In this document: in pieces, positions 882-50,201 of the stretch
Layout of the letters: the number at the start of each line of letters is the position of its first letter
Numbering within the stretch: position 1 is the stretch's first letter
From: Candidatus Caenarcanales bacterium
Lineage (GTDB): Bacteria; Cyanobacteriota; Vampirovibrionia; LMEP-6097
DNA length: 50,552 bases
Direction of reading: 5' to 3'
Assembly: GCA_947459525.1 (NCBI GenBank)
Contig: CANHDW010000002.1
Location: 1-50,552 of the forward strand
The notes under the pieces: model-generated
Databases searched by the model: none
Seen by the model: only the letters and a program-made list of their open reading frames with translations
Told to the model about the DNA's origin: nothing
Program-made: the position numbers and the translations under genes

Positions 882-1874
882 CTAAAAACAAAAAGCCGAC
901 AGCGAAGCAATAACCACAACCGAAATAACCGTCAAGTAAATAGCAGCCTTTAAACCAAATGCCTGCTTATAAACAAAAACCGTAGTTAAATTCACAGAAG
1001 GACTAGCCGTCATAAAAGCAAGCACAGCTCCTATAGGCACTCCCATATTTAAAAATTCTTGGCTCATAGGAATATCCGCACCTGCACAAAAATAAAAAGG
1101 AAATGCGATCAGTGAGAAAATCCACGGCGATAAATATTTATTAGTTATCACAGCTCGAAAAGCAGTCAGGGATTCATAATTAAAATGAAGCAAGCTTGCA
1201 AGAGATACAGACAAAAGTATCCACGGTAAAAACTGTTTTATCGCAGCGACCAGATCCTCTCGTATATGTGCGAGGACTTCCGTCATCCCTAGTTTATGCT
1301 GATGGGACTGATCACCATCTTCAATTTCTACATTTCCATGATGATGATCAGTTTCACAACAATGTTCCTTGGACGATCCACCTGGAACTAATCTCAACGC
1401 AATAAAATCTGCAATTTTAGCTTCTCCGAAGAAAATGAAAACGTATGTAACTAAAACAGCAAAAGCTATCGCCATTAATAAACGATAGACACTAATCTCC
1501 AAGCCAAAAATTCCATAATTAAGGATTAAAGCTGGAACACTACAAGCATTTCCAGCAAGCAAAAAAGCTAAAATTATTTTCCAGTCAAGCTGCTTACGAT
1601 ACAGTCCTAGAGCAAGTGGAATCATTCCACAGGTGCAAATAGGAATTAATGCACCGAGAAAAGCTGAAACTAATATCATCAAAAAAAGACGTAATTGATA
1701 GCTTAAAAACCGTAAAATTTCCCAAGAAGAATTAGCTCCAGCTAAAGTAACTAATCCTATCTTTTCAAAATACCCATCTGGTAAATAAACTTCTATTAAA
1801 GATGAACAAATAACCGCAACAAAGAATACTGGAAGTATCTCAAGCAATATATGAATAAAATGCTCTATAAACAC
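882..1874 (-). CDS. Predicted permease (DUF318/ArsP-like family) with a His/Cys-rich loop
   Basis: Polytopic membrane protein with the motif LGALIPICTCGMIPLALGL typical of the PF03773-type permeases. The central loop is KEHCCETDHHHGNVEIEDGDQSHQHK. Confidence 0.6.
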   Translation of the reverse strand: MFIEHFIHILLEILPVFFVAVICSSLIEVYLPDGYFEKIGLVTLAGANSSWEILRFLSYQLRLFLMILVSAFLGALIPICTCGMIPLALGLYRKQLDWKIILAFLLAGNACSVPALILNYGIFGLEISVYRLLMAIAFAVLVTYVFIFFGEAKIADFIALRLVPGGSSKEHCCETDHHHGNVEIEDGDQSHQHKLGMTEVLAHIREDLVAAIKQFLPWILLSVSLASLLHFNYESLTAFRAVITNKYLSPWIFSLIAFPFYFCAGADIPMSQEFLNMGVPIGAVLAFMTASPSVNLTTVFVYKQAFGLKAAIYLTVISVVVIASLSAFCF

Positions 1875-3744: not shown

Positions 3745-4545
3745 TTAATTACCTTTCTCAGAAACCTCTAGTAGAGACTCTTTCTCTAATTCTTCAAAGC
3801 ACTCCACAGCCACTGGAAAAACTCTTTTAACTAGCTGCATTCCAGCTTTAGCATACTGCTGTATCTCCCACTGAGCTTCTTTTGGAGCTCTAAGATTATA
3901 CCAATGCATAAAATTTCTTAAATTAACCGTAGTAATAAACTCCGTATGTGAACCCACTGGAAGCACTCCACGAGCCTGCTCCCTACATACTCCTAGCTCT
4001 ATTAATTTATTATATGCATCTATAGCCGTTTTAGCAGCGTTATCGTATATTTCACCTGCAAAAGCCTGATCTAGGCTATCACTAGCTTTTACGCTGGCCT
4101 GTTTATTCGTCTCAGCCTGCTCTCTAAATTCATCTGGTCTATAAATAGTGTTATCAAATTTCGTGTATCTCGCACTGATTTCATTGAAAACCCAGCATCT
4201 ATGCTTCATCCACTGACGAGCAATATAGATAGGACACTTAACTCTAAAAGTAATGGAATTTTGCTCGAATGGCGTCCAATGTCTATGCTTCGCTAAAAAT
4301 TTTATTAGCTTTTTATCTTTTTCCTCAAATTCCGCAGAATACTTATTATAAGAGACTCTTGCTGAGTTCACGATAGATAAATCACCACCCATCGAATCCA
4401 TAAGCTCCATATAGCCAAGCGAGCCTAAATCAGCTTTATCCTCAACAATAACAATATTATCTTTTTCAAGAGTGTCTGCCATAAAGAAACATTCTAACAA
4501 GTGATAGCCCTGCAGGAAGGTAAAAATTTTCCAAAATGATATCAA
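3745..4545 (-). CDS. thyX: FAD-dependent thymidylate synthase ThyX
   Basis: ThyX motif region WMKHRCWVFNEISARY (RHR...S.RY). The true start is probably the internal Met at 4482 (MADTLEKDN...). Confidence 0.9.
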   Translation of the reverse strand: MISFWKIFTFLQGYHLLECFFMADTLEKDNIVIVEDKADLGSLGYMELMDSMGGDLSIVNSARVSYNKYSAEFEEKDKKLIKFLAKHRHWTPFEQNSITFRVKCPIYIARQWMKHRCWVFNEISARYTKFDNTIYRPDEFREQAETNKQASVKASDSLDQAFAGEIYDNAAKTAIDAYNKLIELGVCREQARGVLPVGSHTEFITTVNLRNFMHWYNLRAPKEAQWEIQQYAKAGMQLVKRVFPVAVECFEELEKESLLEVSEKGN

Positions 4546-4623: not shown

Positions 4624-4739
4624 TCTAGCGTTCCAAGCGACTGAATCACACTCGTTCCCATCCCGAACACGACAGTTAAGGCAGTTTGCGGTGACAATAC
4701 TTGGCTGGAGACGGCCTGGAAAGATAGCTAAACGCTAGA
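4624..4739 (+). rRNA. rrf: 5S ribosomal RNA, not linked to a 23S gene
   Basis: 116 nt. Helix I pairs TCTAGCGTT (5' end) with AACGCTAGA (3' end). Contains the universal 5S core GTTCCCATCCCGAACACGACAGTTAAG. Confidence 0.9.
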
Positions 4740-4752
4740 CTCTATTTTAATG

Positions 4753-4836: not shown

Positions 4837-4875
4837 GGGATTGTTCACGATCTTTTATTTCTGCGTTTTCGTCCC
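4837..4875 (+). repeat. Solo head fragment of the dispersed repeat family
   Basis: GGGATTGTTCACGATCTTTTATTTCTGCGTTTTCGTCCC. Compare GGGACTGCCCACAATCTTCAATTTCTGCGTTTTCGTCGTCC at 20023. Confidence 0.6.
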
Positions 4876-4882
4876 ATTGAAT

Positions 4883-4942: not shown

Positions 4943-7087
4943 CTAAGCCACTGGCTCTTCAGCTCTCTGAGTATTTTCCAGTAAAGCCTTGATTGATAAA
5001 GACATTCTACCTTTAAAATCTAGACCTTGAACTAAAACTTTAGTCTTATCTCCAACCTTAAAGAATTCATGAACATCATCAACTCTCTCAAGTGCGATCT
5101 GAGAAATATGAACTAAACCACTAACGCCTGGTATTAACTCAACGATAACGCCAACACCATCTAGGACTTTAACGACTTCGCCTTCCCATATTTCACCCTG
5201 CTTAGCACCCTCGGCATTTACCGTAACGTACTTTTTCGCAAGATTCGCAGCTTCTTCAGACACACAGTAAACACAGACAGTTCCATCATCAGTGATATTG
5301 ATCTCAGTACCAGTAACTTCTGTAATCCACTTAATGTTTTTACCACCAGAGCCGATAACTGCACCGATTTTATCTGGATCAATTTTAAATGAAACGATTC
5401 TCGGAGCATTCGCTCTAAGAACCTCTCTTGGAGCTGCTATCACCGCTGTCATCGCAGATAAAATATGTAATCTACCTTCTCTTGCTTGTTTAATAGCTGT
5501 TCTAATGATTTCTAGTGATATTCCTTTAATCTTAATATCCATTTGTAAAGCCGAGATACCCTTATCATTACCCGCTACTTTAAAGTCCATATCGCCAAGG
5601 AAGTCCTCTAATTCATGAATATCAGTAAGAACCACAGTGCTCGCTTCCTCTTTAATAAGACCCATAGCGATACCTGCTACTGGAGTAGTTACTGGAACGC
5701 CAGCATCCATTAAAGCAAGTGAACTTGCGCAGGTAGCTGCCATAGAAGTAGATCCACTAGATTCAAGGACTTCTGAAACGACTCTCATCGCATAAGGGAA
5801 ATCTTCTCTCTTTGGTAGTGATGGCTGGACAGCCCTTTCAGCAAGAGCACCGTGACCTATTTCTCTACGACCAGGTCCTCTGTTTGGCTTAGCCTCTCCT
5901 ACTGACCAACCTGGGAAATTATAGTTATGCATATAGAATTTCTGTGTCTCTGAATCTATACCATCTAATGATCTCGCTAATTTTTCTGTACCTAAAACAA
6001 GTAAAGCCAGAACTTGAGTATTACCTCTTGTGAAAAGACCATCACCATGAACTCCTGGATAAGAACCCACCTCGATGTCGAGTTGTCTTATCTCTGTATT
6101 TTTTCTAGCATCGGCTCTCACACCAGTTTCCGTGATCTGCTTGCGTAAAAGTTTTTTCTCTAATTTTTTCAATTGTGCAGATAGTTCATGCGGGTTATCT
6201 AAAAGATATTCATGAAGCTCATCATCTTCTGCTAAAGCGTCTAACGCTGCATCTACCTTCTCTTGAGCTTTAGCTACCCACGCTCTTCTAGATTCTTTAT
6301 TAGCATTCTGCATAGATTCAATTAAATCTTTTTTAGCGTGCGTTTCAAGTATCTCTATCAATTTAGAATTAGGTTCTGGATTAATAAATTCTTCTTTAGT
6401 CACACCAACTTCTTTGGCAAATTCCCTAATTACTGCAACTTGTTCTTGAATACGAGCGTGAGCATAAGCTATAGCATCAACCACTTTATCGTCTTCAACG
6501 AAATTAGCCCCAGCCTCTACCATCATTACAGAATCCTCTGTACCAGCGACGACTATATCCAAAGGAGAGCTAAGAGTCTCTTCCTCAGATGGATTCACAA
6601 TAAAATTAGCATCCGCGTCTAGAGATATTCTCACAGCACCAACCTCACCAGCAACAGGCAAACCAGACAATTCTAAAGCAAAACCAACACCTAACATCGC
6701 AAGGGTATCTGGCGGGCATAACTGATCAACAGATAAAGTCATTACGTTTACTTGAACTTCATACCTGTAAGCATCTGGGAAAAGGGGTCTTATCGGTCTA
6801 TCTATTAGACGAGAGGTAAGAACCGCTTTATCACTAGCTCTTCCTTCTCTTCTGTTATAACTACCAGGTATTCTACCTACTGAATAAATTTTCTCTTCAA
6901 AGTCAACCATTAAAGGGAAGTAATCTAATTCTTTTTTAGCTTTCTCAGATTTAGTTACAGTAACAAGAAGAATAGTATTTCCACTTCTGATCTGCACTGC
7001 TGCTGTCGCTTGGCGAGCAAGCTTACCAGTCGAGACCTCTATCTCTTTTCCAGCTATAGTAAATTTTTTCTTCTTCTCATTAAACAT
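4943..7087 (-). CDS. pnp: Polyribonucleotide nucleotidyltransferase (PNPase)
   Basis: 714 aa with two RNase PH domains, then KH and S1 domains. Typical motifs FPLMVDFEEK and GDMDFKVAG. Confidence 0.97.
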   Translation of the reverse strand: MFNEKKKKFTIAGKEIEVSTGKLARQATAAVQIRSGNTILLVTVTKSEKAKKELDYFPLMVDFEEKIYSVGRIPGSYNRREGRASDKAVLTSRLIDRPIRPLFPDAYRYEVQVNVMTLSVDQLCPPDTLAMLGVGFALELSGLPVAGEVGAVRISLDADANFIVNPSEEETLSSPLDIVVAGTEDSVMMVEAGANFVEDDKVVDAIAYAHARIQEQVAVIREFAKEVGVTKEEFINPEPNSKLIEILETHAKKDLIESMQNANKESRRAWVAKAQEKVDAALDALAEDDELHEYLLDNPHELSAQLKKLEKKLLRKQITETGVRADARKNTEIRQLDIEVGSYPGVHGDGLFTRGNTQVLALLVLGTEKLARSLDGIDSETQKFYMHNYNFPGWSVGEAKPNRGPGRREIGHGALAERAVQPSLPKREDFPYAMRVVSEVLESSGSTSMAATCASSLALMDAGVPVTTPVAGIAMGLIKEEASTVVLTDIHELEDFLGDMDFKVAGNDKGISALQMDIKIKGISLEIIRTAIKQAREGRLHILSAMTAVIAAPREVLRANAPRIVSFKIDPDKIGAVIGSGGKNIKWITEVTGTEINITDDGTVCVYCVSEEAANLAKKYVTVNAEGAKQGEIWEGEVVKVLDGVGVIVELIPGVSGLVHISQIALERVDDVHEFFKVGDKTKVLVQGLDFKGRMSLSIKALLENTQRAEEPVA

Positions 7088-19915: not shown

Positions 19916-19936
19916 TACCAAAGGTTTATTAAAAAA

Positions 19937-20013
19937 CGACAGAGACGAAGATCTGTAAAAGCGCCAGCTTTTACAATGAAAAAGGCAACCCTCAAGCTCA
20001 AGTCCCTTCGTCG
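19937..20013 (-). repeat. Decayed copy of the tRNA-Asp-derived tRNA-like hairpin unit (unit 1)
   Basis: CGACAGAGACGAAGATCTGTAAAAGCGCCAGCTTTTACAATGAAAAAGGCAACCCTCAAGCTCAAGTCCCTTCGTCG aligns along its whole length with unit 2. Confidence 0.7.
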
Positions 20014-20020
20014 ATGCTAA

Positions 20021-20144
20021 TAGGGACTGCCCACAATCTTCAATTTCTGCGTTTTCGTCGTCCTCATGACCTCATGTACCTTCAGTACACTGCGGTCATT
20101 CGTCCTCCTCAGCCTTGAACTTGTGCGTTTGTGAACAGTCCCTA
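20021..20144 (+). mobile_element. Full-length MITE-like copy of the dispersed repeat (variant arms)
   Basis: Terminal inverted arms TAGGGACTGCCCACAA and TTGTGAACAGTCCCTA flank the conserved core. It sits between two paralogous units, one of which provides an empty site. Confidence 0.85.
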
Positions 20145-20160
20145 ATTTAATTTTAAAAAA

Positions 20161-20241
20161 TGGCGGAGACGAAGATCTGTAAAAGCGCCAGCTTTTACAA
20201 TGAAAAAGTAAACCCTTAGGGTTCAAGTCCCTTCGTCTCCG
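20161..20241 (-). ncRNA. tRNA-Asp-derived tRNA-like hairpin unit (unit 2); function unknown
   Basis: It starts with TGGCGGAGACGAAG, identical to 20262-20275 under the tRNA 3' end. It ends with GGGTTCAAGTCCCTTCGTCTCCG, an inverted copy of the tRNA T-arm plus acceptor. On the minus strand it ends ...CTTCGTCTCC-G-CCA followed by a T-run. Confidence 0.45.
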
Positions 20242-20261
20242 TTATTTTAATTTATTAAAAA

Positions 20262-20338
20262 TGGCGGAGACGAAGGGACTTGAACCCTCGACCCCCTGCG
20301 TGACAGACAGGTGCTCTAACCAACTGAGCTACGCCTCC
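20262..20338 (-). tRNA. tRNA-Asp (anticodon GUC), CCA encoded
   Basis: Cloverleaf folded by hand. Acceptor GGAGGCG/CGTCTCC, D-arm GCTC-AGTTGGTTA-GAGC, anticodon arm CCTGT-CTGTCAC-GCAGG, T-arm GAGGG-TTCAAGT-CCCTT, discriminator G, then CCA. Confidence 0.92.
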
Positions 20339-31704: not shown

Positions 31705-31818
31705 ACTAAATTTTTGGGGAAAAATGACCCCTTATAATTTTTATTCCTACTAGATAAATTTAATAAAGGACTTAGGGATTAAGACTGAGTCCTCTATTAA
31801 AACAAGGAGTAAAACTAA

Positions 31819-32190
31819 ATGTTAAAGTACGATACAGAGAATCTTCCACGCATTACCTTTAAAGGAAAAAGGCTTACCGAAAAGCAAATCGCAGTCCTAG
31901 AATTTCTAGCACAGGGGCAGACGAATACAGAAATAGCCGAAAATCTTTTCCTCTCTGTAAGAACTGTAGAATCACACATCTCTAGAATTAGAAGTATTAT
32001 AAGCGAACATATGCCCCAGTCACAGAGAATCAGTGATAGACAGCTCGTTTTATTCGCAAAAGATCTAATCGATGGCTTTAAAATTTTCGACATACTGAAA
32101 AGCGGCATGAATGAAGGCTTTGAGCTGTCAGAATTTAAAACTTATCAAAAAACAGTAAGCCTGAATAATGATAGATATTATATTCAATGA
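31819..32190 (+). CDS. LuxR/FixJ-type HTH transcriptional regulator (stand-alone; HTH is N-terminal)
   Basis: LTEKQIAVLEFLAQGQTNTEIAENLFLSVRTVESHISRIRSII. Confidence 0.75.
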   Translation: MLKYDTENLPRITFKGKRLTEKQIAVLEFLAQGQTNTEIAENLFLSVRTVESHISRIRSIISEHMPQSQRISDRQLVLFAKDLIDGFKIFDILKSGMNEGFELSEFKTYQKTVSLNNDRYYIQ

Positions 32191-32358
32191 GGCGGGCGAA
32201 AACGCAGAAATTGGAGTTGTGCAGCGGTCTCTTTTGGGCGTGTAGCCAAACGAACAAGTTCAAGGTCTGAGGAGGATGAATGACCGCAATGTATCAAGCA
32301 TACATGAGGATCATGAGGACAACGAAAACGCAGAAATTGGAGTTTCGCTACACGCCCC
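32187..32358 (-). mobile_element. Full-length repeat copy (32236-32357) plus an adjacent partial head (32187-32232)
   Basis: Arms GGGCGTGTAGCCAAAC and GTTTCGCTACACGCCC flank a reverse-complemented core. The element fills the whole spacer between the luxR-type stop and the argS stop. Confidence 0.9.
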
Positions 32359-32360
32359 TG

Positions 32361-34256
32361 TTACATTTTCTCTGGTGCAGAGATCGCAAGTATACTAAGA
32401 GCATTTTTTATAACTATCTTAGAAGCTGCCACCAGAGATAACCTAGCCTTCATAACCTCTTCGTTTTCACCTATAATACGATTTTCATTATAGAACTGAT
32501 GAAATAAGCTAGCTAAATTCTTTAAGTAGACTGAGATTTTATAAGGTGCCCTGATATCAGCAGCATCAATAACAAGCTTAGGTAATTCAATCAATTCTAA
32601 AACTAAGCTTCTGATAGTTTTCAACTGCTCTTCACTATGATATTCATCAGAAAAGAGTTTCTTGAAATTTGCAGAAAATGTTTTAAACTCTTCATTTAAT
32701 AAACGTTCTAGCTCATCTACTTCAAAAATAGCAGCTTCTTCCGTATTATCAACTATATTGATACGAGGGCTTACTAAATTACGAAATATACTTGCCGAGC
32801 GGGCATGTGCATACTGTATGTAGTAAACTGGATTATCTTTATCATGTTTTTGCGCTAAAGCTAAATCAAAAACCATGCGATTATTGGCTTGGCTATCCAC
32901 CAGAAAGAATCTCAGGGCATCTTTACCGACTTCAGCTAAAAGCTCATCAACGTTAACTATAGTGCCTTTGCGCTTAGACATTTTTTTCTCAACGCCATCT
33001 TCTTTAACGGAAACCAATTGAATAAAAATCAACTCTAGCTGATCAGGATTATAGCCAATAGCTTGAATCGCCCCACGAATGCCAAGCTCTTGACCATGAT
33101 GATCGCTGCCCCAAACATTAATTAACTTATCAAAGCCTCTGTCAAATTTATCTTTATGATAGGCGATATCACCAGCTAAATAAGTGAACATGCCTTGAGA
33201 TTTTCTAAGGACTCTATCTCGCTCATCACCAAAGGATTTCGCTCTAAACCATAGAGCCGAGTCTTCTTCATACACAGCAGAGACCTCATGGGCGTGGAGC
33301 GGAACTCCAATTTCTGCGTTTTCACCCGCCTCATGATGCTCCGTCACATCTTCTTGCTTTACTTTTACTGCTTTCAGTGTTTCACAGATTAACTCAATTT
33401 TATTTTTATCATTAATTTTCACTTGATGTAGATTCTCGTTCTCCGAGTACCACGTATCGAAATGAACTTCTATGTCAGCTAAAACTTTCTTCTGTAAATC
33501 AAGAAAAAGACTTTTCGCTAATTTACCAGCTATTTCTTTTGCTTGATCACCAGCAAGGGAAGCCGCATCCAAATAGCCTTTTAGCTTAGCTTTATAAATC
33601 TCCGGCTTTAAAACATCTAACATGGAATCCAGTGGATAAGCATCCACTGGATAATTTTCCTTAGTGATGTGACCCTCTTGAATTTGAATTGCAGCTTGAG
33701 CAGAGAGTGAAAGCTTTTCTATCTGCACACCAGCGTCATTAATATAAAATTCACTAGATACATCGTAACCAGCCCAGTCAAGTAATCTTGCAAGAGAATT
33801 ACCCAGAACTGCTTGCCTGCCATGACCTAAATGTAGATTACCAGTAGGATTCGCTGAAACATACTCTATAAGAAAGCGATGCGGCTCCATATCAGCCCGA
33901 GCTTCTTTAGATAAACGCCCATAATTATCTTTCTCTTGATGAATCTCTACTAGAGCAGATTCTAAAAAATCCCAATTCAAACGAATATTAATAAACCCTG
34001 GACCAGCGATAGATATATCACCAATGGCAACTACATCCAAATGTTTTACTATACTTTGAGCTATCTTTACTGGTGCTAGTTTCGCCTCACGAGACAGCTT
34101 TAGGGCTATACTTACGGCGATATCGCCATGATCAGGGTTTTTACATCTCTCCACATCTATATAATCAGAAAAACTTTTCAGCTCACCTAAGTCAGATGCC
34201 GCAATAGCTTTATTTATAGCTATTTGGAATAAATTACGAATCTTGCTGCTTAACAT
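32361..34256 (-). CDS. argS: Arginine--tRNA ligase
   Basis: HIGH-type motif NPTGNLHLGHGR, MSKRKG (KMSKS) and a C-terminal DALR domain. At 631 aa it is longer than typical and carries an internal repeat-derived segment. Confidence 0.95.
   Translation of the reverse strand: MLSSKIRNLFQIAINKAIAASDLGELKSFSDYIDVERCKNPDHGDIAVSIALKLSREAKLAPVKIAQSIVKHLDVVAIGDISIAGPGFINIRLNWDFLESALVEIHQEKDNYGRLSKEARADMEPHRFLIEYVSANPTGNLHLGHGRQAVLGNSLARLLDWAGYDVSSEFYINDAGVQIEKLSLSAQAAIQIQEGHITKENYPVDAYPLDSMLDVLKPEIYKAKLKGYLDAASLAGDQAKEIAGKLAKSLFLDLQKKVLADIEVHFDTWYSENENLHQVKINDKNKIELICETLKAVKVKQEDVTEHHEAGENAEIGVPLHAHEVSAVYEEDSALWFRAKSFGDERDRVLRKSQGMFTYLAGDIAYHKDKFDRGFDKLINVWGSDHHGQELGIRGAIQAIGYNPDQLELIFIQLVSVKEDGVEKKMSKRKGTIVNVDELLAEVGKDALRFFLVDSQANNRMVFDLALAQKHDKDNPVYYIQYAHARSASIFRNLVSPRINIVDNTEEAAIFEVDELERLLNEEFKTFSANFKKLFSDEYHSEEQLKTIRSLVLELIELPKLVIDAADIRAPYKISVYLKNLASLFHQFYNENRIIGENEEVMKARLSLVAASKIVIKNALSILAISAPEKM
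33291..33341 (+). repeat. In-frame intragenic copy of the repeat head inside argS
   Basis: GGCGTGGAGCGGAACTCCAATTTCTGCGTTTTCACCCGCCTCATGATGCTC versus 47872-47922 GGCGTGTAGCGAAACTCCAATTTCTGCGTTTTCGTCGTCCTCATGATCCTC (44 of 51 nt identical by hand alignment). Confidence 0.8.
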
Positions 34257-35424
34257 TATAATCTTCTAATTTTTGAGCGAGAATACTGATCGGATTCACG
34301 AAGGATTTTAAAGGCTGATTAAGAGCAATAGACAATGGACTGAAATAATCATCCATATAGTTTACAGCTATTTGATCAACGAATCTAGATCCTCTCGCAA
34401 AAGATAATAGTCCCGCACTCAAGGCTCTAATAATAGCAGAATGATCAGCTTCTTTATGTCTCTTCTTCGCATAGGCAAATACTTCAGAAAAACTATTATG
34501 TTTCAAAAGCATGTAGCTAAAATTTGGTGACTCCGAAACACTTAGGTCAACAACGAAGAGAGGTTTATTTTTTTCAAACTCTGGTATATGCGTTAAAAGA
34601 TCTAAGTCATTAATTAGAATTATAAAATCAGAATTATTTGAATCTGTTTCAGTAATATCTAAGTGATGTAATATTAATTTGACATCTAATAGGACTTCCG
34701 AGCTCAGTTTTTTTGAATTAGAGATTATACTTCCCCTAAGGTTTTTAAGCTTATAGTCAGAGATAATATCTTTCGCTAGAAAGAATAAAGCACTAGTTAG
34801 GCAAGAAGGTGAAATTGAGCAAATATTGTGTGCATGATGATCTTTGATAACTTTATTTAAGTAAATCTCCTCCGCAACATCAAAGCCAAATTCACCAATC
34901 AAAGGATTATCCTTACGATTACTTGCAAAAATAATACGATTAAAATATGTATGATTTTTAATAATATTGAGATAAACAGATAAATTAATTTCACGCCGCG
35001 CCTTAAATTCTGCTAATTTATTCACATCTAATTTATCTTCAAATTTATGCCACTCATCTAGTGCTTTAATGTCAGCACCTTTAGAAGCCGTATATTTATG
35101 ACTATAATATGACCAATAAAATAAATCCTCATCTACTGTCGATTTTATATCTACCAAATTAATTCGCAAAATTCTATATTGCTTTTCTCGATTGGGTTTA
35201 GCATCTATATCGCCTAAAGTTTTCAGCAATTCATTTAGTTTAAACATTAAATCTTGGATTGGGTAAGGATGATTACTTTGATTAAGCTTCAAATTACTTG
35301 AAAACAACAATGTGTCCAAGTCAATATAAATATTTTTAGCACCCTGCAATTTTGTTGTTTGAGGCAGCTGCAAATACTCTAGATAAGAGTCAAATTCTTT
35401 TTTTTGAAAATTGGTATAATACAT
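34234..35424 (-). CDS. Hypothetical protein
   Basis: 396-aa ORF whose 3' end overlaps the argS start by 23 nt. No family recognised. Confidence 0.5.
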   Translation of the reverse strand: MYYTNFQKKEFDSYLEYLQLPQTTKLQGAKNIYIDLDTLLFSSNLKLNQSNHPYPIQDLMFKLNELLKTLGDIDAKPNREKQYRILRINLVDIKSTVDEDLFYWSYYSHKYTASKGADIKALDEWHKFEDKLDVNKLAEFKARREINLSVYLNIIKNHTYFNRIIFASNRKDNPLIGEFGFDVAEEIYLNKVIKDHHAHNICSISPSCLTSALFFLAKDIISDYKLKNLRGSIISNSKKLSSEVLLDVKLILHHLDITETDSNNSDFIILINDLDLLTHIPEFEKNKPLFVVDLSVSESPNFSYMLLKHNSFSEVFAYAKKRHKEADHSAIIRALSAGLLSFARGSRFVDQIAVNYMDDYFSPLSIALNQPLKSFVNPISILAQKLEDYNVKQQDS

Positions 35425-38138: not shown

Positions 38139-39341
38139 TTAGAGTTTTTTTATTAATGCAAAGATATCTCTGCTGCTTTCAGGTCTTGCAAAGCGATACA
38201 AATTTTTCTTCATCGCCGATATTTTCTCAGGGTTCTTCGCTAAGTCGAAAAGCAAATCAGCAATCTCCTTTTGCGGAGAGTATCGCACAATTCCATTTTC
38301 TGCATTTTCACCACCAGAAAAGGCATCTTGGCGAATCATGAAACCACAACCAGCCTTAACTAAAGCCTCTGCATTTTTAGTCTGATGATCATGAGCAGCC
38401 CAAGGTAAAGGAATTAATATTGGTACTATCAGCGACACTGCCATTTCAGCACAAGTCATAGCACCAGCCCTGCAAATAGCTATATCAACGGTTTTAGAAA
38501 TATTTGCCATCTCATGGGTATAACTTAAAACCTTATAGTTAGAGTATTTATTCGGATCAGCATTTAAATATTTACTTACATGCTCATCAAAAAGCTTAGA
38601 ACCTGTAATGTGAATAATAGATATTCTTTTACCTTCAAGAGCTAATCTCTGATTAAAATCCTCAAAATCTTTAAGTAAAATGCCTATACTATCATTAACG
38701 AACTGGGAACCCTGACTACCACCAGTTACCAAAACCCTCAAATGATTTTCATCACGACTAGCAGCAGCCCCATCAGCGGCTTCCCTATAAATATTTATAA
38801 AATCTTGTGAGACTGGATTACCCGTGTAACGATATTTATCATTAAAATTTACATTTATCGGAAAGCCTAAGCTCACACGACTCGCAAATATTTTAAATAA
38901 TTTATTTACCAATCCAAAATTACTATCAAGATTATGAATTAGGAACTTTGTTTTCGTTATCACACAGGCAAGAAACACTGGCGCTGCCACGTAACCACCC
39001 GTACCCATCACTACGTCAATTTTATTTTCTCTCAGGTAGTTCACAGAGCATTTATAAGCTTTAAAAAAAATACCAAACCATTCTAAGTTTTCTTTAAAAG
39101 AATTATTTCGAGATGGCAGCTTTGGAGCATTAATAGGAAGAAACTGGATATATTCTTTTCTTAGACACAGTTCCTGCTCCAGTTTTCCTTCACCACCAAT
39201 ATAGTAAAGAAAGTTTTTTTCAGCCCCAGCTCGATTACTTTCATCTTCAAATAGCTCAGCTACAGCAAGACATGGATAAATATGTCCTCCAGTGCCTCCT
39301 CCCGTAAACGCAACTCGCACAAGAATATCCTCTATCAACAA
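38139..39341 (-). CDS. murG: UDP-GlcNAc--undecaprenyl-PP-MurNAc-pentapeptide GlcNAc transferase
   Basis: N-terminal FTGGGTGGHIYP and C-terminal CRAGAMTCAEM...AHDHQTKNA. Confidence 0.92.
   Translation of the reverse strand: MLIEDILVRVAFTGGGTGGHIYPCLAVAELFEDESNRAGAEKNFLYYIGGEGKLEQELCLRKEYIQFLPINAPKLPSRNNSFKENLEWFGIFFKAYKCSVNYLRENKIDVVMGTGGYVAAPVFLACVITKTKFLIHNLDSNFGLVNKLFKIFASRVSLGFPINVNFNDKYRYTGNPVSQDFINIYREAADGAAASRDENHLRVLVTGGSQGSQFVNDSIGILLKDFEDFNQRLALEGKRISIIHITGSKLFDEHVSKYLNADPNKYSNYKVLSYTHEMANISKTVDIAICRAGAMTCAEMAVSLIVPILIPLPWAAHDHQTKNAEALVKAGCGFMIRQDAFSGGENAENGIVRYSPQKEIADLLFDLAKNPEKISAMKKNLYRFARPESSRDIFALIKKL
38285..38318 (+). repeat. In-frame intragenic copy of the repeat head inside murG
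   Basis: GCACAATTCCATTTTCTGCATTTTCACCACCAG. Its reverse complement aligns with 32191-32231 (GGCGGGCGAAAACGCAGAAATTGGAGTTGTGCAGCGGTCTC). It encodes GGENAENGIV. Confidence 0.65.
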
Positions 39342-47155: not shown

Positions 47156-47869
47156 ATGGTAGAAATGAATCGTAGAAATTTTCTTAACGCGGCCGCATTT
47201 ACTGGCTTAGGTCTTGGACTCAGTAATGTACTTGGCGCTTGCTCTAAAGGAGGAAAGTTTAATATAAACGAACTCTATCCCATTTATAAAGACGGTCAAT
47301 ATCAAGAAAAAAACTTTGAGCACCTGACTAAAAACGATAAACTCGGCTTAAGCCCAGAAATTATAAAAAACCATCTAGGACTATATTCTAATTACATTAA
47401 AAATGTAAACCAAGCTGAAGCTGAGATGTCAGTAGGGAATATTACAGAATTCGGGATGAAGCATCTAGCCTTCTCTCTAAATGGCATGGCTTTACATGAT
47501 ATCTATTTTACGAACATGAGCACAGAAGAATCTAAGCGTAGTTCTAGCCTGAATAGAGCTATTGATAAAACCTTTGGGTCCTTCGATGCCTACATGAAAA
47601 ATTTAACAGAACTCGCGATGAAAGTAGAAGGCTGGTCAGTAACGGGTCTTAATCTACTTAACGGTAAAATTTTCAATTACGCTCTGCAAGACCACTCTGC
47701 TAATTTCCCTAATTTTATAGTTCCGATATTAGCCCTAGATGTTTATGAACATGCTTATGTAGCCGATTTCAAGAAAGAAGGTAAAGCGAAGTATCTTGAA
47801 GCTTTTACGAAAATTATTGATTGGGATATAGTGAGCCGCAGGCTTGACCTTGTTAAAAACTTAGTCTAA
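47156..47869 (+). CDS. Divergent Fe/Mn-type superoxide dismutase family protein with a Tat signal and lipobox
   Basis: Tat motif NRRNFL and lipobox LGAC. C-terminal LDVYEHAYVADF (compare D-x-W-E-H-A-Y-Y). The His ligand positions are conserved in NHLGLY and LHDIYF. Confidence 0.65.
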   Translation: MVEMNRRNFLNAAAFTGLGLGLSNVLGACSKGGKFNINELYPIYKDGQYQEKNFEHLTKNDKLGLSPEIIKNHLGLYSNYIKNVNQAEAEMSVGNITEFGMKHLAFSLNGMALHDIYFTNMSTEESKRSSSLNRAIDKTFGSFDAYMKNLTELAMKVEGWSVTGLNLLNGKIFNYALQDHSANFPNFIVPILALDVYEHAYVADFKKEGKAKYLEAFTKIIDWDIVSRRLDLVKNLV

Positions 47870-47871
47870 GT

Positions 47872-48110
47872 GGCGTGTAGCGAAACTCCAATTTCTGCGT
47901 TTTCGTCGTCCTCATGATCCTCATGTAAGCTTGATGAATCAAGCTTGTATTTCCGCTTGCTCGCATATGAGACTTGTCTCGCATGCTCGGCATCGCCGGA
48001 AATTACCCGCAGTACACTGCGGTCATTCGTCCTCCTCGGCCTTGAACTTGTTCGTTTGGCTACACGCCCCTAAGAGACCGCTGAACAACTCCATCTTCTG
48101 CGTTCATGAC
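47872..48110 (+). mobile_element. Longest full-length repeat copy (47872-48068) plus an adjacent partial head (48069-48110)
   Basis: Arms GGCGTGTAGCGAAAC and GTTTGGCTACACGCC, the conserved core, and an 84-nt extra central segment. It fills the spacer between two convergent genes. Confidence 0.9.
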
Positions 48111-48928
48111 TTAATCGTAAAGTCACCGCTCCAGCATATTCTATAGACTAGATTAGTAGCAAGCTCACTTGCTATATCCATGATATTTTCACGAACATCT
48201 TGACTCAGTAAGGCTTCCAGCCCTAAATTACCGAGAGAATCACGATCTTCTTGAACATAATCTATAAATTCCTCTCTCTTCTCTTCACTTAAATTTAAAG
48301 CAGCAGCATCTTTAATATAAATAGTCGTCAGCTGATGCTCTGCACTTAATTTCTTTAGATAATTAAAAATCTGAATATTGATCTCTACTAAATGCCCAAG
48401 CTGATAATTCAACAAGGCATTCATGCCGATTAAGGTTTGTACTGGATTAAGAATAGTTAAAACTAGCGTTTTTTCACTATCGATTTCCTCTATACTCAGA
48501 CTCTGTTCAGGTAGCTGGTTTAAATTCGCTTGATAATATAACTGTTCTCTTTCTATGACCTCTAAACGATTTTCAACAGTTAGCCTATATTCTTCAACGA
48601 AATCCAGAAGCTCATCTGGTTCGTCTAAATTATCAATAATAAAAGCTTTTAATTCAGAGCCTTTGAGTTTAAGCTTCTTAAATTCAGCAATAACTTTCTC
48701 TACATCTAGAATAGATGGGGCTAACTGAATTACCTTAAAGAAACTAGAAAAATAATCAGATACCTTATCGGTAATGATTTTACCGAAAGGTTTACAGGAT
48801 TCTTTTATCTCCGTGCAGGTCTTTAAATATTGAGCGTTTAAGTCCTCGACTAAAGCTGACTTTTCTTCTTCTAAAAGAGATTTTTGGAATATTTCGATTA
48901 AGGTTTCCTCATCCATGTCTTTACTCAC
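48104..48928 (-). CDS. Hypothetical acidic protein
   Basis: 274-aa ORF, Glu/Leu-rich, with no recognised motif. Its stop codon lies in the repeat tail. Confidence 0.5.
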   Translation of the reverse strand: MSKDMDEETLIEIFQKSLLEEEKSALVEDLNAQYLKTCTEIKESCKPFGKIITDKVSDYFSSFFKVIQLAPSILDVEKVIAEFKKLKLKGSELKAFIIDNLDEPDELLDFVEEYRLTVENRLEVIEREQLYYQANLNQLPEQSLSIEEIDSEKTLVLTILNPVQTLIGMNALLNYQLGHLVEINIQIFNYLKKLSAEHQLTTIYIKDAAALNLSEEKREEFIDYVQEDRDSLGNLGLEALLSQDVRENIMDIASELATNLVYRICWSGDFTIKS

Positions 48929-49014: not shown

Positions 49015-49944
49015 TTAAGAAATTATTTTATGAACTCTAAAGTAATTGGCTCCAGCTTCATAACAGAGTTCATTATATCTTTGCGTTAATAAATCCAAAT
49101 CCATATTACGCTCTGCAAGAGTGCTATTACTTTCACACTGCTCACGAACTCCATTTTCTGCGTTTAAAGCAGCGCCTAAAAAAGACTTACGACTAGCTCC
49201 TATAAGTATTTCAGGATTAAACTCCCGAGACCGCCACATGATTTTATTTTCTGCATTTTTAAGTTTCGGCAAAATCTCAATTAAATCATAGCTGTGATTA
49301 TAATTTTTACCAAAACCTAATCCTGGATCAAGAATTACCCTAGCTAAGTCAATACCATAATTTTCACATAAATCTAAAAATCGAGAAAAAAAATCTATTA
49401 AATGCATTTCAAAAGCGGCTTTCTCATTTTTAGCCTGAGGATAATCACTTAAATAGTAATCTTCTGGAACCTCTAAAGCCTTTAAACTTGGTGGCACACC
49501 ACCTTTCGAGTGCATCGCTATAAGTTTAATCTTCTGTTCTTTATCATACTTAGAAATAAGCTCAAGCTTACGCTCATCAGTAAAGCCTTCTACATCATTT
49601 AAAAAAGATATTTTTTCCTTAAAGAAAGGCTCTAATAGTAAGGCTTCCATGATTTCATATTTGCGAGTATCTATAGATAAAGGGAAATCATATTTACTAC
49701 AAAAAATTTTTAAAAAATTTTCCAAACGCTGATATTCTTCAATCGCTGATACAGGCTCCGCATCAGGGCGAGTAGATTCTGCCCCTACATCTAAAGCGTA
49801 AGCTCCACTTTCCATAAGCTTCTCTGCTTTATCTAAAAGCCAGCCAAGATCACAAAAATCCTTAGAACCATCTGAAAATGAGTCTGGAGTTATATTTAAT
49901 ATCGCTAAATACTTAGCACTTTTCATATTTCCAAATCTAGGCAC
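49015..49944 (-). CDS. folP: Dihydropteroate synthase
   Basis: ILNITPDSFSDGS, DVGAESTRP, DPGLGFGK, GASRKSF and RVHKI. The likely true start is the ATG at 49926 (MKSAKYLAILN...). Confidence 0.92.
   Translation of the reverse strand: MPRFGNMKSAKYLAILNITPDSFSDGSKDFCDLGWLLDKAEKLMESGAYALDVGAESTRPDAEPVSAIEEYQRLENFLKIFCSKYDFPLSIDTRKYEIMEALLLEPFFKEKISFLNDVEGFTDERKLELISKYDKEQKIKLIAMHSKGGVPPSLKALEVPEDYYLSDYPQAKNEKAAFEMHLIDFFSRFLDLCENYGIDLARVILDPGLGFGKNYNHSYDLIEILPKLKNAENKIMWRSREFNPEILIGASRKSFLGAALNAENGVREQCESNSTLAERNMDLDLLTQRYNELCYEAGANYFRVHKIIS
49145..49165 (+). repeat. Short in-frame copy of the repeat head inside folP
   Basis: CGAACTCCATTTTCTGCGTTT versus the consensus CGAAACTCCAATTTCTGCGTTT. It encodes NAENGV in the same frame as the argS and murG copies. 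Confidence 0.45.
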
Positions 49945-50016
49945 GGTTACCGAACTCCGATTTCTGCGTTAGTGCCATCTCTGGGGACTGCTTACAATCT
50001 TCAATTTCTGCGTTTT
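49945..50016 (+). repeat. Two tandem head fragments of the repeat between folP and the next gene
   Basis: GGTTACCGAACTCCGATTTCTGCGTT (49945-49970) and GGGGACTGCTTACAATCTTCAATTTCTGCGTTTTTT (49983-50016). Confidence 0.7.
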
Positions 50017-50201
50017 TTATAGCCACCTAAAAAAAAGAATAGCACTGCTGTAAAGAAACTTATGGGATGCTTTTTAATAAAAGTTAATATATTGGAACCA
50101 AGTTCAGATATATTATGCTTAGTGCTGCGAATATAGATGAGTTCTCTTAATTGCTTAAGATTACCATTTTTATCATCATCTTCAAAGATAGGATTATACA
50201 T
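50001..50201 (-). CDS. Small membrane protein (hypothetical)
   Basis: 66 aa with a C-terminal TM segment HPISFFTAVLFFFLGG. The stop codon lies inside the repeat head. Confidence 0.35.
   Translation of the reverse strand: MYNPIFEDDDKNGNLKQLRELIYIRSTKHNISELGSNILTFIKKHPISFFTAVLFFFLGGYKKRRN

What the first reader, a model, noticed from the sequence alone, without database searches (positions are those of the whole stretch)
33291..33341. Repeat head embedded in frame inside argS, an essential gene
A 51-nt segment of argS matches the left arm plus head of the intergenic element (44 of 51 nt against 47872-47922). On the coding strand it reads ...VTEHHEAGENAEIGVPLHAHE... It lies just upstream of the conserved ArgS block ...ALWFRAKSFGDERDRV, in a protein that is long (631 aa) for the family. 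In addition, 32 nt of it (ATGAGGCGGGTGAAAACGCAGAAATTGGAGTT on the coding strand) recur with one mismatch at 32187-32218, about 1.1 kb away beyond the 3' end of the same gene. This resembles the in-frame Rickettsia palindromic elements (RPEs), where a selfish repeat adds a peptide segment to housekeeping proteins.
Basis: partly seen in the sequence, partly recalled or inferred. Interest (0 to 1): 0.8.

Follow-up and report, generated by a model that had tools for sequence, protein, structure and literature searches.

The report
Mobile repeat translated inside argS gene
A 60-base remnant of a small mobile DNA repeat sits in frame inside the essential arginyl-tRNA synthetase gene of a freshwater Vampirovibrionia (non-photosynthetic cyanobacterial relative) and adds a 20-residue floppy loop, one case among at least 90 in-frame gene insertions of a repeat family not found in the papers searched.

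Summary

**The argS segment.** Window 33288-33347 is the arm-plus-head end of a dispersed repeat. It is translated as ArgS residues 304-323 (VTEHHEAGENAEIGVPLHAH).
- All orthologues at 62% identity or less lack the segment.
- Orthologues at 91-99% identity carry at least six different in-frame remnants at this one site, or none (protein lengths 601-631 aa).
- In an AlphaFold model (mean pLDDT 90) the only segment below pLDDT 50 is residues 305-320.

- The body is 121 nt, with covarying terminal inverted arms of about 16 nt and a 5-bp target-site duplication.
- Four clean filled/empty site pairs exist between related MAGs.
- 121 + 5 = 126 nt = 42 codons, so an insertion never shifts the frame.
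- In the window plus 109 loci from five related MAGs, 92 independent genic sites were found. 91 use one frame (…HEDHEDDENAEIGV…), although a second frame is equally open.
- Genic copies keep a length that is a multiple of three (36/37); intergenic copies do so less often (31/46).
- Hosts include RecJ, ArgJ, HemN, DabA and an SNF2 helicase.

No transposase partner was found, and translation of the insert is inferred, not shown. It is a new member of a known kind.

The parts
33288..33347 (-). In-frame MITE remnant in argS. It keeps the left arm (GGGCGTGGAGCGG), the conserved head and CCTCATGATGCTC, and has lost the rest of the element. It encodes ArgS residues 304-323, VTEHHEAGENAEIGVPLHAH. CTCAT at 33285-33289 resembles the frequent target duplication.
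   Evidence: DNA alignment with seven other alleles; protein alignment; pLDDT below 50 at residues 305-320.
32361..34256 (-). argS (arginine-tRNA ligase, 631 aa), the host gene.
   Evidence: (PDB 3fnr, E = 2.7e-77). (Foldseek hit to ArgRS 3fnr, TM-score 0.92 normalised to the target).
32236..32357 (-). Full-length copy B (122 nt, arm type GGGCGTGTAGCG). It starts 3 nt after the argS stop codon. Its flanks are AACAG / AAAAG.
   Evidence: It folds as a long DNA hairpin, -19.5 kcal/mol, z = -3.95.
32187..32231 (-). Partial copy (arm GAGACCGCTGCAC + head + CCTCAT) abutting copy B. Its end supplies the TGA stop codon of the convergent GerE/LuxR-type ORF 31819..32190; alleles with an empty spacer have TAA there.
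   Evidence: (D7, I6).
47871..48069 (+). Copy A (199 nt): a full element carrying a 78-nt nested insert in its inner hairpin loop. It is flanked by a perfect 5-bp duplication, CTAAG, at 47866-47870 and 48070-48074. It fills the spacer between convergent genes (SodFe-like 47156..47869 and ORF 48104..48928).
48074..48107 (+). Degenerate partial copy (arm GAGACCGCTGAAC + head) next to copy A. It overlaps the stop codon of ORF 48104..48928.
20023..20142 (+). Copy C (120 nt, arm type GGGACTGCCCACA / TGTGAACAGTCCC), intergenic near tRNA-Asp. Its flanks are TAATA / TAATT.
1304..1349 (-). Degenerate in-frame remnant (…DHHHGNVEIEDGDQSH…) in an ArsP_1-family permease, ORF 882..1874.
   Evidence: (D1).
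38276..38309 (-). Probable degenerate in-frame remnant (…GGENAENGIV…) in MurG, ORF 38139..39341. The head has 3 mismatches and the arm matches 9 of 13.
   Evidence: The PDB alignment stops before this segment, so insertion status is unproven.
49134..49167 (-). Degenerate in-frame remnant (…LNAENGVREQC…) in FolP, ORF 49015..49944.
   Evidence: (D1). The PDB alignment is not decisive.
49940..50017 (+). Two short degenerate copies in tandem (heads at 49953 and 49997). The first overlaps the first 5 nt of the folP ORF; the rest lies upstream of its start.
4837..4876 (+). Short degenerate copy (arm + head closed by TGGGA…TCCCA) between the 5S rRNA gene and pnp.
   Evidence: (D1).

Best explanation
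**What the segment is.** It is the eroded remnant of a non-autonomous DNA transposon (MITE) that landed in argS and is now translated as part of the enzyme.

**The intact element**
- It is 121 nt long.
- Its terminal arms of about 16 nt pair with each other. They come in at least four sequence types.
- It has an invariant 'head' (AACTCCAATTTCTGCGTTTTCGTCGTCCTCATGATCCTCATG), a small inner hairpin with a variable 5-nt loop, and a conserved right half (…CTGCGGTCATTCGTCCTCCTCAGCCTTGAACTTG…).

**How it inserts.** Insertion duplicates 5 bp of target, so each event adds 126 nt, exactly 42 codons, and never shifts the reading frame.

**Which insertions survive.** Two of the six ways of reading the element have no stop codon. 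Only one is found in genes: the reverse-complement frame, which encodes G(T/R)VA(E/K)RTSSRLRRTNDRSVLxVHEDHEDDENAEIGV plus four arm-coded residues. The likely reason is that this peptide is very hydrophilic and can hang out of a surface loop.

**What happens afterwards.** In-frame internal deletions, often between short repeats such as TCAT, trim the insert.

**In argS.** The insert sits at the tip of a beta-hairpin in the catalytic domain. In the window 20 residues remain. Closely related genomes carry other remnants, with other arm types, or none. So the site has been hit or converted repeatedly.

**Shown here**
- Repeat family, terminal inverted repeats, 5-bp duplications and filled/empty sites.
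- The 126-nt increment.
- One-frame usage and the length constraint in genes.
- Lineage-specific, polymorphic insertion in ArgS.
- A low-confidence loop in the structure model.

**Inferred**
- A transposase acting in trans (not found).
- Translation of the insert (no proteomic data).
- Hydrophilicity as the reason for the frame bias.
- Microhomology as the deletion mechanism.
For: **The family is real and large**
- The 21-nt head gives more than 109 loci in five related Vampirovibrionia MAGs.
- There are 260 head copies in the sequence held.

**It has MITE anatomy**
- Of the 83 copies with both arms, 54 are exactly 121 nt.
- Flanking 5-mers are identical in 23 of 79 copies and differ at one base in 18. 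The adjacent control 5-mers are identical in 0.
- Shifting the assumed boundary by one base in either direction abolishes the signal.
- Four clean filled/empty pairs, with a single copy of the 5-mer in the empty allele: L034/L109, L049/L101 (genic), L051/L070 and L069/L003.
- The outer stem has 15 pairs, 13 with compensatory changes, and is 96% paired. Two pairs of the inner hairpin also covary. None of 500 shuffles reaches the observed values.

**Copies in genes are under a coding constraint**
- 130 of the 131 genic copies use one frame.
- After collapsing orthologous sites: 91 of 92, binomial p = 4e-26.
- The element is equally open in a second frame, 45 versus 44 of 54 copies.
- Copies between tandem genes show no comparable orientation bias, 19 versus 14.
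- Genic lengths are congruent to 1 mod 3 in 36 of 37 copies, against 31 of 46 nongenic; Fisher p = 5e-4.
- Stop codons in the used frame occur in 0 of 25 genic and 9 of 29 nongenic full copies.
- Mean hydropathy (GRAVY) is -1.28 for the used frame and -0.27 for the unused one.

**Hosts are ordinary genes**
- SNF2 helicase, DabA, PanE, a cytochrome c assembly protein, FtsX, a DAO-family FAD oxidoreductase, RecJ, ArgJ.
- HemN.

**The argS site**
- Protein alignment and DNA alignment.
- The spacer just 3' of argS is 2 nt in L113 and L115 but 41-174 nt elsewhere, filled with elements of different arm types.
- AlphaFold: mean pLDDT 90, below 50 only at residues 305-320, flanked by strands 298-301 and 323-326.
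Against: - No autonomous insertion sequence with matching ends was found in about 0.8 Mb of related DNA.
- The arms vary while the interior is invariant, the opposite of most MITE families. Orthologous copies can carry different arm types. So gene conversion, or a mobilisation route that depends on a hairpin, cannot be excluded.
- Only 41 of 79 copies have duplications that are perfect or differ at one base.
- Translation of the insert rests on sequence constraints alone.
- The 91:1 frame bias is not explained by stop codons. Its attribution to peptide properties is untested.
- All sequences come from metagenome assemblies, where repeats can be misassembled. Against this, the argS allele recurs in independent assemblies (P0002-P0005, up to 13 contigs).
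Confidence: 0.85

Rival explanations
1. The inserted peptide is a domesticated, useful module rather than tolerated selfish DNA. The His/Asp/Glu-rich stretch could be a metal-binding or interaction loop, and its spread into many proteins would then be driven by selection on the host.
For: - One frame is used in 91 of 92 genic sites although another frame is open.
- The peptide sequence is strongly conserved between copies.
- The insert persists in an essential gene across several MAG species.
Against: - In ArgS the segment is the most variable part of the protein. It is absent, shortened or replaced in genomes 91-97% identical elsewhere.
- Copies decay by varied deletions.
- Identical sequence fills intergenic spacers.
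- The segment is modelled without confident structure.
- Conservation between copies is as expected for recent transposition.
Confidence: 0.07
2. The element is removed after transcription or translation, like an intron or an intein, so the mature ArgS lacks the segment.
For: - Full elements fold into a long hairpin that would bring the two flanks together.
Against: - Genic copies obey coding constraints that a spliced element would not need: no stops in the frame used, length a multiple of three, a single orientation.
- The argS remnant has lost the palindrome and does not fold unusually (z = -1.16).
- At 20-42 residues the insert is far too short for an intein.
- There is no Rfam match at the elements.
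Confidence: 0.03
3. The copies spread by homologous recombination or gene conversion between pre-existing repeats, or by a REP-type mechanism that depends on a hairpin. No cut-and-paste or copy-and-paste transposase would be involved.
For: - Alleles at the argS site and in the argS 3' spacer are mosaics with different arm types.
- The arms covary while the core is fixed.
- No transposase was found.
Against: - 5-bp duplications of unrelated target sequences and clean empty sites are the signature of staggered-cut insertion.
- Conversion can reshape existing copies but does not create new sites with duplications.
Confidence: 0.04
4. The peptide is an ancestral feature of ArgS, and the intergenic copies are fragments copied out of argS.
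For: None found beyond the sequence match itself.
Against: - All orthologues at 62% identity or less lack the segment, as do several near-identical ones.
- The repeat occurs in more than 90 unrelated gene sites with its own ends and duplications.
Confidence: 0.01

Closest known systems
Rickettsia palindromic elements (RPE-1 to RPE-10; Ogata et al. 2000, 2002) and the related protein-coding palindromes of Wolbachia
   Same: - Palindromic repeats of about 105-146 bp with an open frame.
- Found both between genes and fused in frame inside conserved housekeeping genes. 19 of 44 RPE-1 copies in R. conorii are in ORFs (PMC2229807, PMC10969869).
- Each family encodes a conserved peptide.
- In the one case tested (gmk) the insert is translated and the enzyme stays active (PMC2229807).
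   Different: - The host is an unrelated phylum: free-living freshwater Vampirovibrionia rather than obligate intracellular Rickettsiales.
- A clear 5-bp target duplication and filled/empty polymorphism are seen here. For RPEs the duplication is listed as '?' (PMC2229807, Table 1).
- Here element plus duplication is exactly 42 codons.
- The arms are hypervariable and covary.
- Sequence similarity to RPE consensus sequences was not tested.
Classical bacterial MITEs, for example Nezha and the Anabaena MITEs (cyanobacteria), Correia (Neisseria), ERIC (enterobacteria), QMITE2 (Coxiella)
   Same: - Small size, terminal inverted repeats, target duplication and many copies.
- A stable hairpin fold and empty/filled sites in relatives.
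- Occasional in-frame fusions with host ORFs and C-terminal extensions (PMC3184786, PMC5896051).
   Different: - In those families the intragenic in-frame copies are a minority. Here about half of all copies are in frame in genes.
- Those families usually share their ends with a known insertion sequence. No partner was found here.
- Here the ends vary and the interior is fixed.
Small dispersed repeats of heterocystous cyanobacteria (Elhai et al. 2008; recalled from memory, not read here)
   Same: - Very small, structured, apparently mobile repeats in the cyanobacterial phylum.
- They insert next to or inside one another.
   Different: - They are 21-27 nt long and have no described target duplication or coding role.
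- This comparison was not tested here.

Membership tests
[quoted passage not shown] | Small size with no room for a transposase gene. | tested here: met
   The modal length is 121 nt; variants range from 52 to 202 nt.
[quoted passage not shown] | Terminal inverted repeats. | tested here: met
   The outer stem has 15 pairs and is 96% paired across 54 distinct copies.
[quoted passage not shown] | Target-site duplication of fixed length. | tested here: met
   - The duplication is 5 bp.
- It is perfect in 23 of 79 copies and one base off in 18. The control 5-mers are perfect in 0.
- The signal is lost when the boundary is shifted by one base.
[quoted passage not shown] | Many dispersed copies, with insertion polymorphism between relatives. 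| tested here: met
   - More than 109 loci in five MAGs.
- Four clean filled/empty pairs.
- The spacer 3' of argS is empty in L113 and L115.
[quoted passage not shown] | A cognate autonomous insertion sequence with the same ends and the same duplication length. | tested here: inconclusive
   None was found in the roughly 0.8 Mb held. Whole genomes could not be scanned.
Rickettsia palindromic elements (RPE families) | Sequence membership in RPE-1 to RPE-10, confined to Rickettsia and close relatives. | tested here: not met
   - The head 21-mer was found only in Vampirovibrionia/Melainabacteria MAGs; two of these MAGs carry other labels ('Proteobacteria', 'bacterium') but share the same repeat.
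- The peptide matched only proteins from MAGs of the same group, where a source name is given.
- Direct comparison with RPE consensus sequences was not possible.
Rickettsia palindromic elements (RPE families) | A palindromic repeat with an open frame, inserted in frame in conserved protein genes. | tested here: met
Rickettsia palindromic elements (RPE families) | The insert lies at the protein surface and is compatible with the fold. | tested here: inconclusive
   - Tested for ArgS only, and only on a predicted model.
- The insert is the sole region below pLDDT 50, at a hairpin tip.
- No solvent-exposure calculation or experiment was done.
Intein or self-splicing intron | A splicing domain (intein blocks, at least about 130 aa) or a group I/II intron RNA structure. 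| tested here: not met
   - The insert is 20-42 residues.
- There is no Rfam match at gathering threshold in the window, nor at E-value 1 or below on two element-bearing loci.
- Coding constraints are present.

The most novel reading that the evidence does not exclude
The family may be adapted to live inside genes.
- Its body length (121 nt) plus its duplication (5 bp) is tuned to 42 codons.
- It carries a stop-free, hydrophilic reading frame, so most in-frame landings are survivable. That would make it a standing generator of hypervariable surface loops in essential proteins.

In addition, the fixed core with freely covarying arms may mean that it is mobilised through a hairpin (single-stranded DNA or RNA) intermediate, by an enzyme that reads the core and not the ends. 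That would be unlike ordinary MITEs.
Probability: 0.2. Interest if true: 0.8.

Novelty: new member of a known kind. Interest (0 to 1): 0.62.

Why it matters
**Why the class is of interest.** Protein-coding palindromic repeats have been treated as a peculiarity of Rickettsia and Wolbachia. How they insert, and why proteins tolerate them, has stayed open since 2000.

**What this family adds**
- It occurs in a different phylum.
- It has unambiguous insertion signatures: a 5-bp duplication and empty sites.
- It has been active recently.
- It has at least about 90 independent in-frame sites, with natural present/absent/trimmed alleles in genomes that are otherwise nearly identical.

**Questions that become testable by comparison**
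- Where inserts are tolerated in proteins.
- How fast they are trimmed.
- Whether they change enzymes such as ArgS.

**A practical point for annotation**
- Gene callers turn intergenic copies into 33-70-aa 'hypothetical proteins'.
- Length differences between orthologues in this clade are largely repeat-driven.

Tried and rejected
- **Autonomous element.** I searched for arm pairs up to 4 kb apart. The hits were separate small copies flanking ordinary genes (HemN, S15, PNPase). An all-against-all megablast for multi-copy segments of 0.5-4 kb found only orthologous synteny broken at polymorphic repeats.
- **Known RNA families.** There was no match at the elements, either at gathering threshold on the window or at E-value 1 or below on two loci.
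- **Terminator role for intergenic copies.** No terminator-like site was found in 31800-33500.
- **A small protein encoded by the element.** The consensus-peptide search returned only short ORFs whose start codons lie in unrelated flanks. They are therefore incidental.
- **Orientation bias caused by the insertion mechanism.** Copies between tandem genes are 19 versus 14, so this was rejected as the main cause of the 91:1 bias in genes.
- **Insertion status of the degenerate copies in FolP and MurG.** The PDB alignments end at or before the segments, so this stays undecided.
- **Fuzzy-regex search for empty sites.** It timed out and was replaced by BLAST of reconstructed empty sites.
Full report
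**Observation**

The 51 nt at 33291-33341 match 47872-47922 at 44/51 (D2). Their core 32 nt are complementary, with one mismatch, to 32187-32218 (I6).

The 21-nt core AACTCCAATTTCTGCGTTTTC occurs four times exactly in the window. Four more copies have 3 mismatches or fewer, against 0.00 expected from shuffles. With looser matching there are 12 copies, each preceded by an arm-like sequence.

The segment lies in ORF 32361..34256 (-), a 631-aa arginine-tRNA ligase. It reads VTEHHEAGENAEIGVPLHAHE on the coding strand.

**Source organism**

The exact head 21-mer was found in more than 109 stretches of the GTDB representative genomes. All are in five related MAGs of Vampirovibrionia/Melainabacteria: LMEP_6097, REEB446, Deming_bin.154, samp_4445_VAMB_679 and WB4_1_1465 (the last is labelled Proteobacteria). 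The window's ArgS is identical to one annotated in a Candidatus Melainabacteria MAG.

**Is the peptide an insertion?**

Yes. I aligned 27 ArgS sequences.
- Every orthologue at 62% identity or less goes straight from ...ICxxLK to ...YExxxALWF.
- Among sequences 91-99% identical to the window protein, the site carries:
  - VTE(H/D)HEAGENAEIGVPLHAH (631 aa);
  - VTEDHEAGENADQQKCL (628 aa);
  - SEQSHEGTVAENADPLHAN (630 aa);
  - EPEAIVAEGVSEQSQ (626 aa);
  - SESIEQSI (618 aa);
  - two extra residues (614 aa);
  - nothing (612 aa);
  - a deletion that also removes an older 11-residue stalk (601 aa).

I fetched the DNA for eight of these alleles and aligned it. The variants are differently deleted pieces of the same repeat, with different arm types.

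Relative to the 612-aa allele, the window has 60 nt (33288-33347) in place of 3 nt.

An AlphaFold model built on this alignment has mean pLDDT 90. Its only segment below 50 is residues 305-320, between strands 298-301 and 323-326. The model superposes on solved ArgRS structures.

**What the repeat is**

I collected 260 head copies from the window and 109 loci and looked for the matching right arm. 83 copies had both arms, and 54 of them are exactly 121 nt.

The anatomy, from left to right, is:
- an arm of about 16 nt;
- the invariant head;
- an inner hairpin with a variable 5-nt loop;
- a conserved right half;
- the complementary arm.

The arms come in at least four types: GGGCGTGTAGCGA, GGCACTGTTGCCG, GGGACTGCTCGCA and GAGACCGCTGCAC. 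They always pair within a copy.
- 13 of the 15 outer pairs show compensatory changes and 96% of cells are paired.
- Two pairs of the inner hairpin also covary.
- No shuffle reaches these values.
- This does not tell DNA-level inverted repeats from a folded intermediate.

The 5 nt on each side are identical in 23 of 79 copies and one base off in 18. The next 5 nt out are identical in 0. The signal disappears if the boundary is moved by one base.

Four site pairs in related MAGs are filled in one genome and empty in the other, with a single copy of the 5-mer in the empty allele. One of them lies inside a gene.

The spacer just 3' of argS varies between alleles (spacer lengths):
- it is 2 nt long in two alleles;
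- elsewhere it holds an arms-only hairpin, or one element, or one and a half elements;
- these elements have three different arm types.

So this is a MITE with a 5-bp target duplication that has moved since these MAG lineages split.

**The coding aspect**

121 + 5 = 126 nt = 42 codons, and tandem copies are spaced 126 nt apart.

Of the 260 head copies, 131 lie in long open frames, with at least 150 codons in total and at least 25 on each side. 130 of these use the same frame, GAA AAC GCA GAA ATT GGA GTT. Collapsing orthologous sites gives 92 independent sites, 91 in that frame (p = 4e-26).

Stop codons do not explain this. Full copies are as often open in one frame of the other strand (44 versus 45 of 54).

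An insertion bias does not explain it either. Copies between tandem genes are 19 versus 14.

The frame used encodes G(T/R)VA(E/K)RTSSRLRRTNDRSVLxVHEDHEDDENAEIGV plus four arm-coded residues. Its mean hydropathy is -1.28; the unused frame scores -0.27. I infer selection at the peptide level.

Further signs of translation:
- Genic copies have lengths congruent to 1 mod 3 in 36 of 37 cases, against 31 of 46 outside genes; Fisher p = 5e-4.
- No genic full copy has a stop in the used frame (0 of 25), whereas 9 of 29 nongenic full copies do.

Hosts include an SNF2 helicase (three copies), DabA, PanE, a cytochrome c assembly protein, FtsX, a DAO-family FAD oxidoreductase, RecJ, ArgJ and a periplasmic binding protein, and HemN.

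In the window itself, an ArsP-type permease, FolP and probably MurG carry degenerate remnants.

**The argS copy in detail**

On the + strand it reads CTCAT|GGGCGTGGAGCGG-AACTCCAATTTCTGCGTTTTC-ACCCGCCTCATGATGCTC-CGTCAC. That is a TSD-like CTCAT, then the left arm, the head and the start of the inner region. The inner hairpin, right half and right arm are gone.

The remnant no longer folds unusually (z = -1.16). A full copy does (z = -3.95).

The alleles are mosaic:
- the window and L115 share the left part but differ in arm type;
- L114 and L115 share a 9-nt deletion but differ in arm type.

So there has been either repeated insertion at a hot spot or conversion from other copies.

**Comparison with known systems**

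Functionally this is the RPE situation: 19 of 44 RPE-1 copies in R. conorii lie in ORFs, each family encodes a conserved peptide, and the gmk insert is translated and tolerated (PMC2229807, PMC10969869).

It is not a member of the RPE families. It was found only in Vampirovibrionia, and unlike RPEs it has a clear target duplication.

It meets the structural definition of a MITE, except that no parent insertion sequence was found.

In-frame MITE fusions are known in Anabaena, enterobacteria, pneumococcus and Coxiella (PMC3184786, PMC5896051), but there they are a minority of copies.

I found no paper describing repeats of this kind in Melainabacteria or Vampirovibrionia.

**Verdict**

- The thing is a new member of a known kind.
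- Three features are unusual: an exact 42-codon increment, near-exclusive use of one frame, and variable covarying arms around a fixed core.
- Untested: translation of the insert, the identity of the mobilising enzyme, and the cause of the frame bias.

Noticed in passing
window 19929-20338: Two 64-nt direct repeats (92% identical) at 19929-19992 and 20153-20216 bracket MITE copy C. Each contains a fragment resembling the 3' end of tRNA-Asp (GACGAAG…). A 31-nt inverted duplicate of the tRNA 3' half lies at 20218-20248, next to the real tRNA-Asp gene (20262-20338, -). This looks like repeated integration or duplication at a tRNA gene.
   Followed up: no
window 47926-48005 (inside copy A); also L001, L006, L044, L059, L080: A 78-81-nt insert occupies the inner hairpin loop of some copies. 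It has its own palindromes (AAGCTTGATnAATCAAGCTT; GAGCCA…TGGCTC). Its length is a multiple of three and it is open in the frame used in genes, so genic copies carrying it stay in frame (elements of 199 and 202 nt). It may be a second, nested small element.
   Followed up: partly
window 32187-32190, compared with L113 and L115: The stop codon of the GerE/LuxR-type ORF 31819..32190 is TGA and is supplied by the end of a partial repeat copy (…CAATGAGGCGGG…). Alleles with an empty spacer end …ATGCAATAA. The insertion therefore rebuilt the stop codon and changed the penultimate codon (YYIQ* versus YYMQ*).
   Followed up: partly
proteins P0121-P0170: Public annotations contain dozens of 33-70-aa 'hypothetical proteins' from Melainabacteria MAGs. 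They are simply the open frame of intergenic repeat copies, with start codons in unrelated flanks.
   Followed up: yes
window 4624-4740: A 5S rRNA gene stands alone. The upstream neighbour is thyX (3745..4545, -) and the downstream neighbour is pnp (4943..7087, -), with no 23S rRNA gene next to it. A degenerate repeat copy follows at 4837-4876.
   Followed up: no
L007, L027, L056, L079/L087, L100; window 32187-32357: Copies often lie head to tail at exactly 126-nt spacing and share the 5-mer between them. Their arm types are sometimes different (new insertion beside an old copy) and sometimes identical (tandem duplication). The boundary of an existing copy appears to be a preferred target.
   Followed up: partly
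window 34234-35424 (-): A 396-aa ORF with no Pfam match overlaps the start of argS by 23 nt. It is conserved upstream of argS in all related loci fetched.
   Followed up: no
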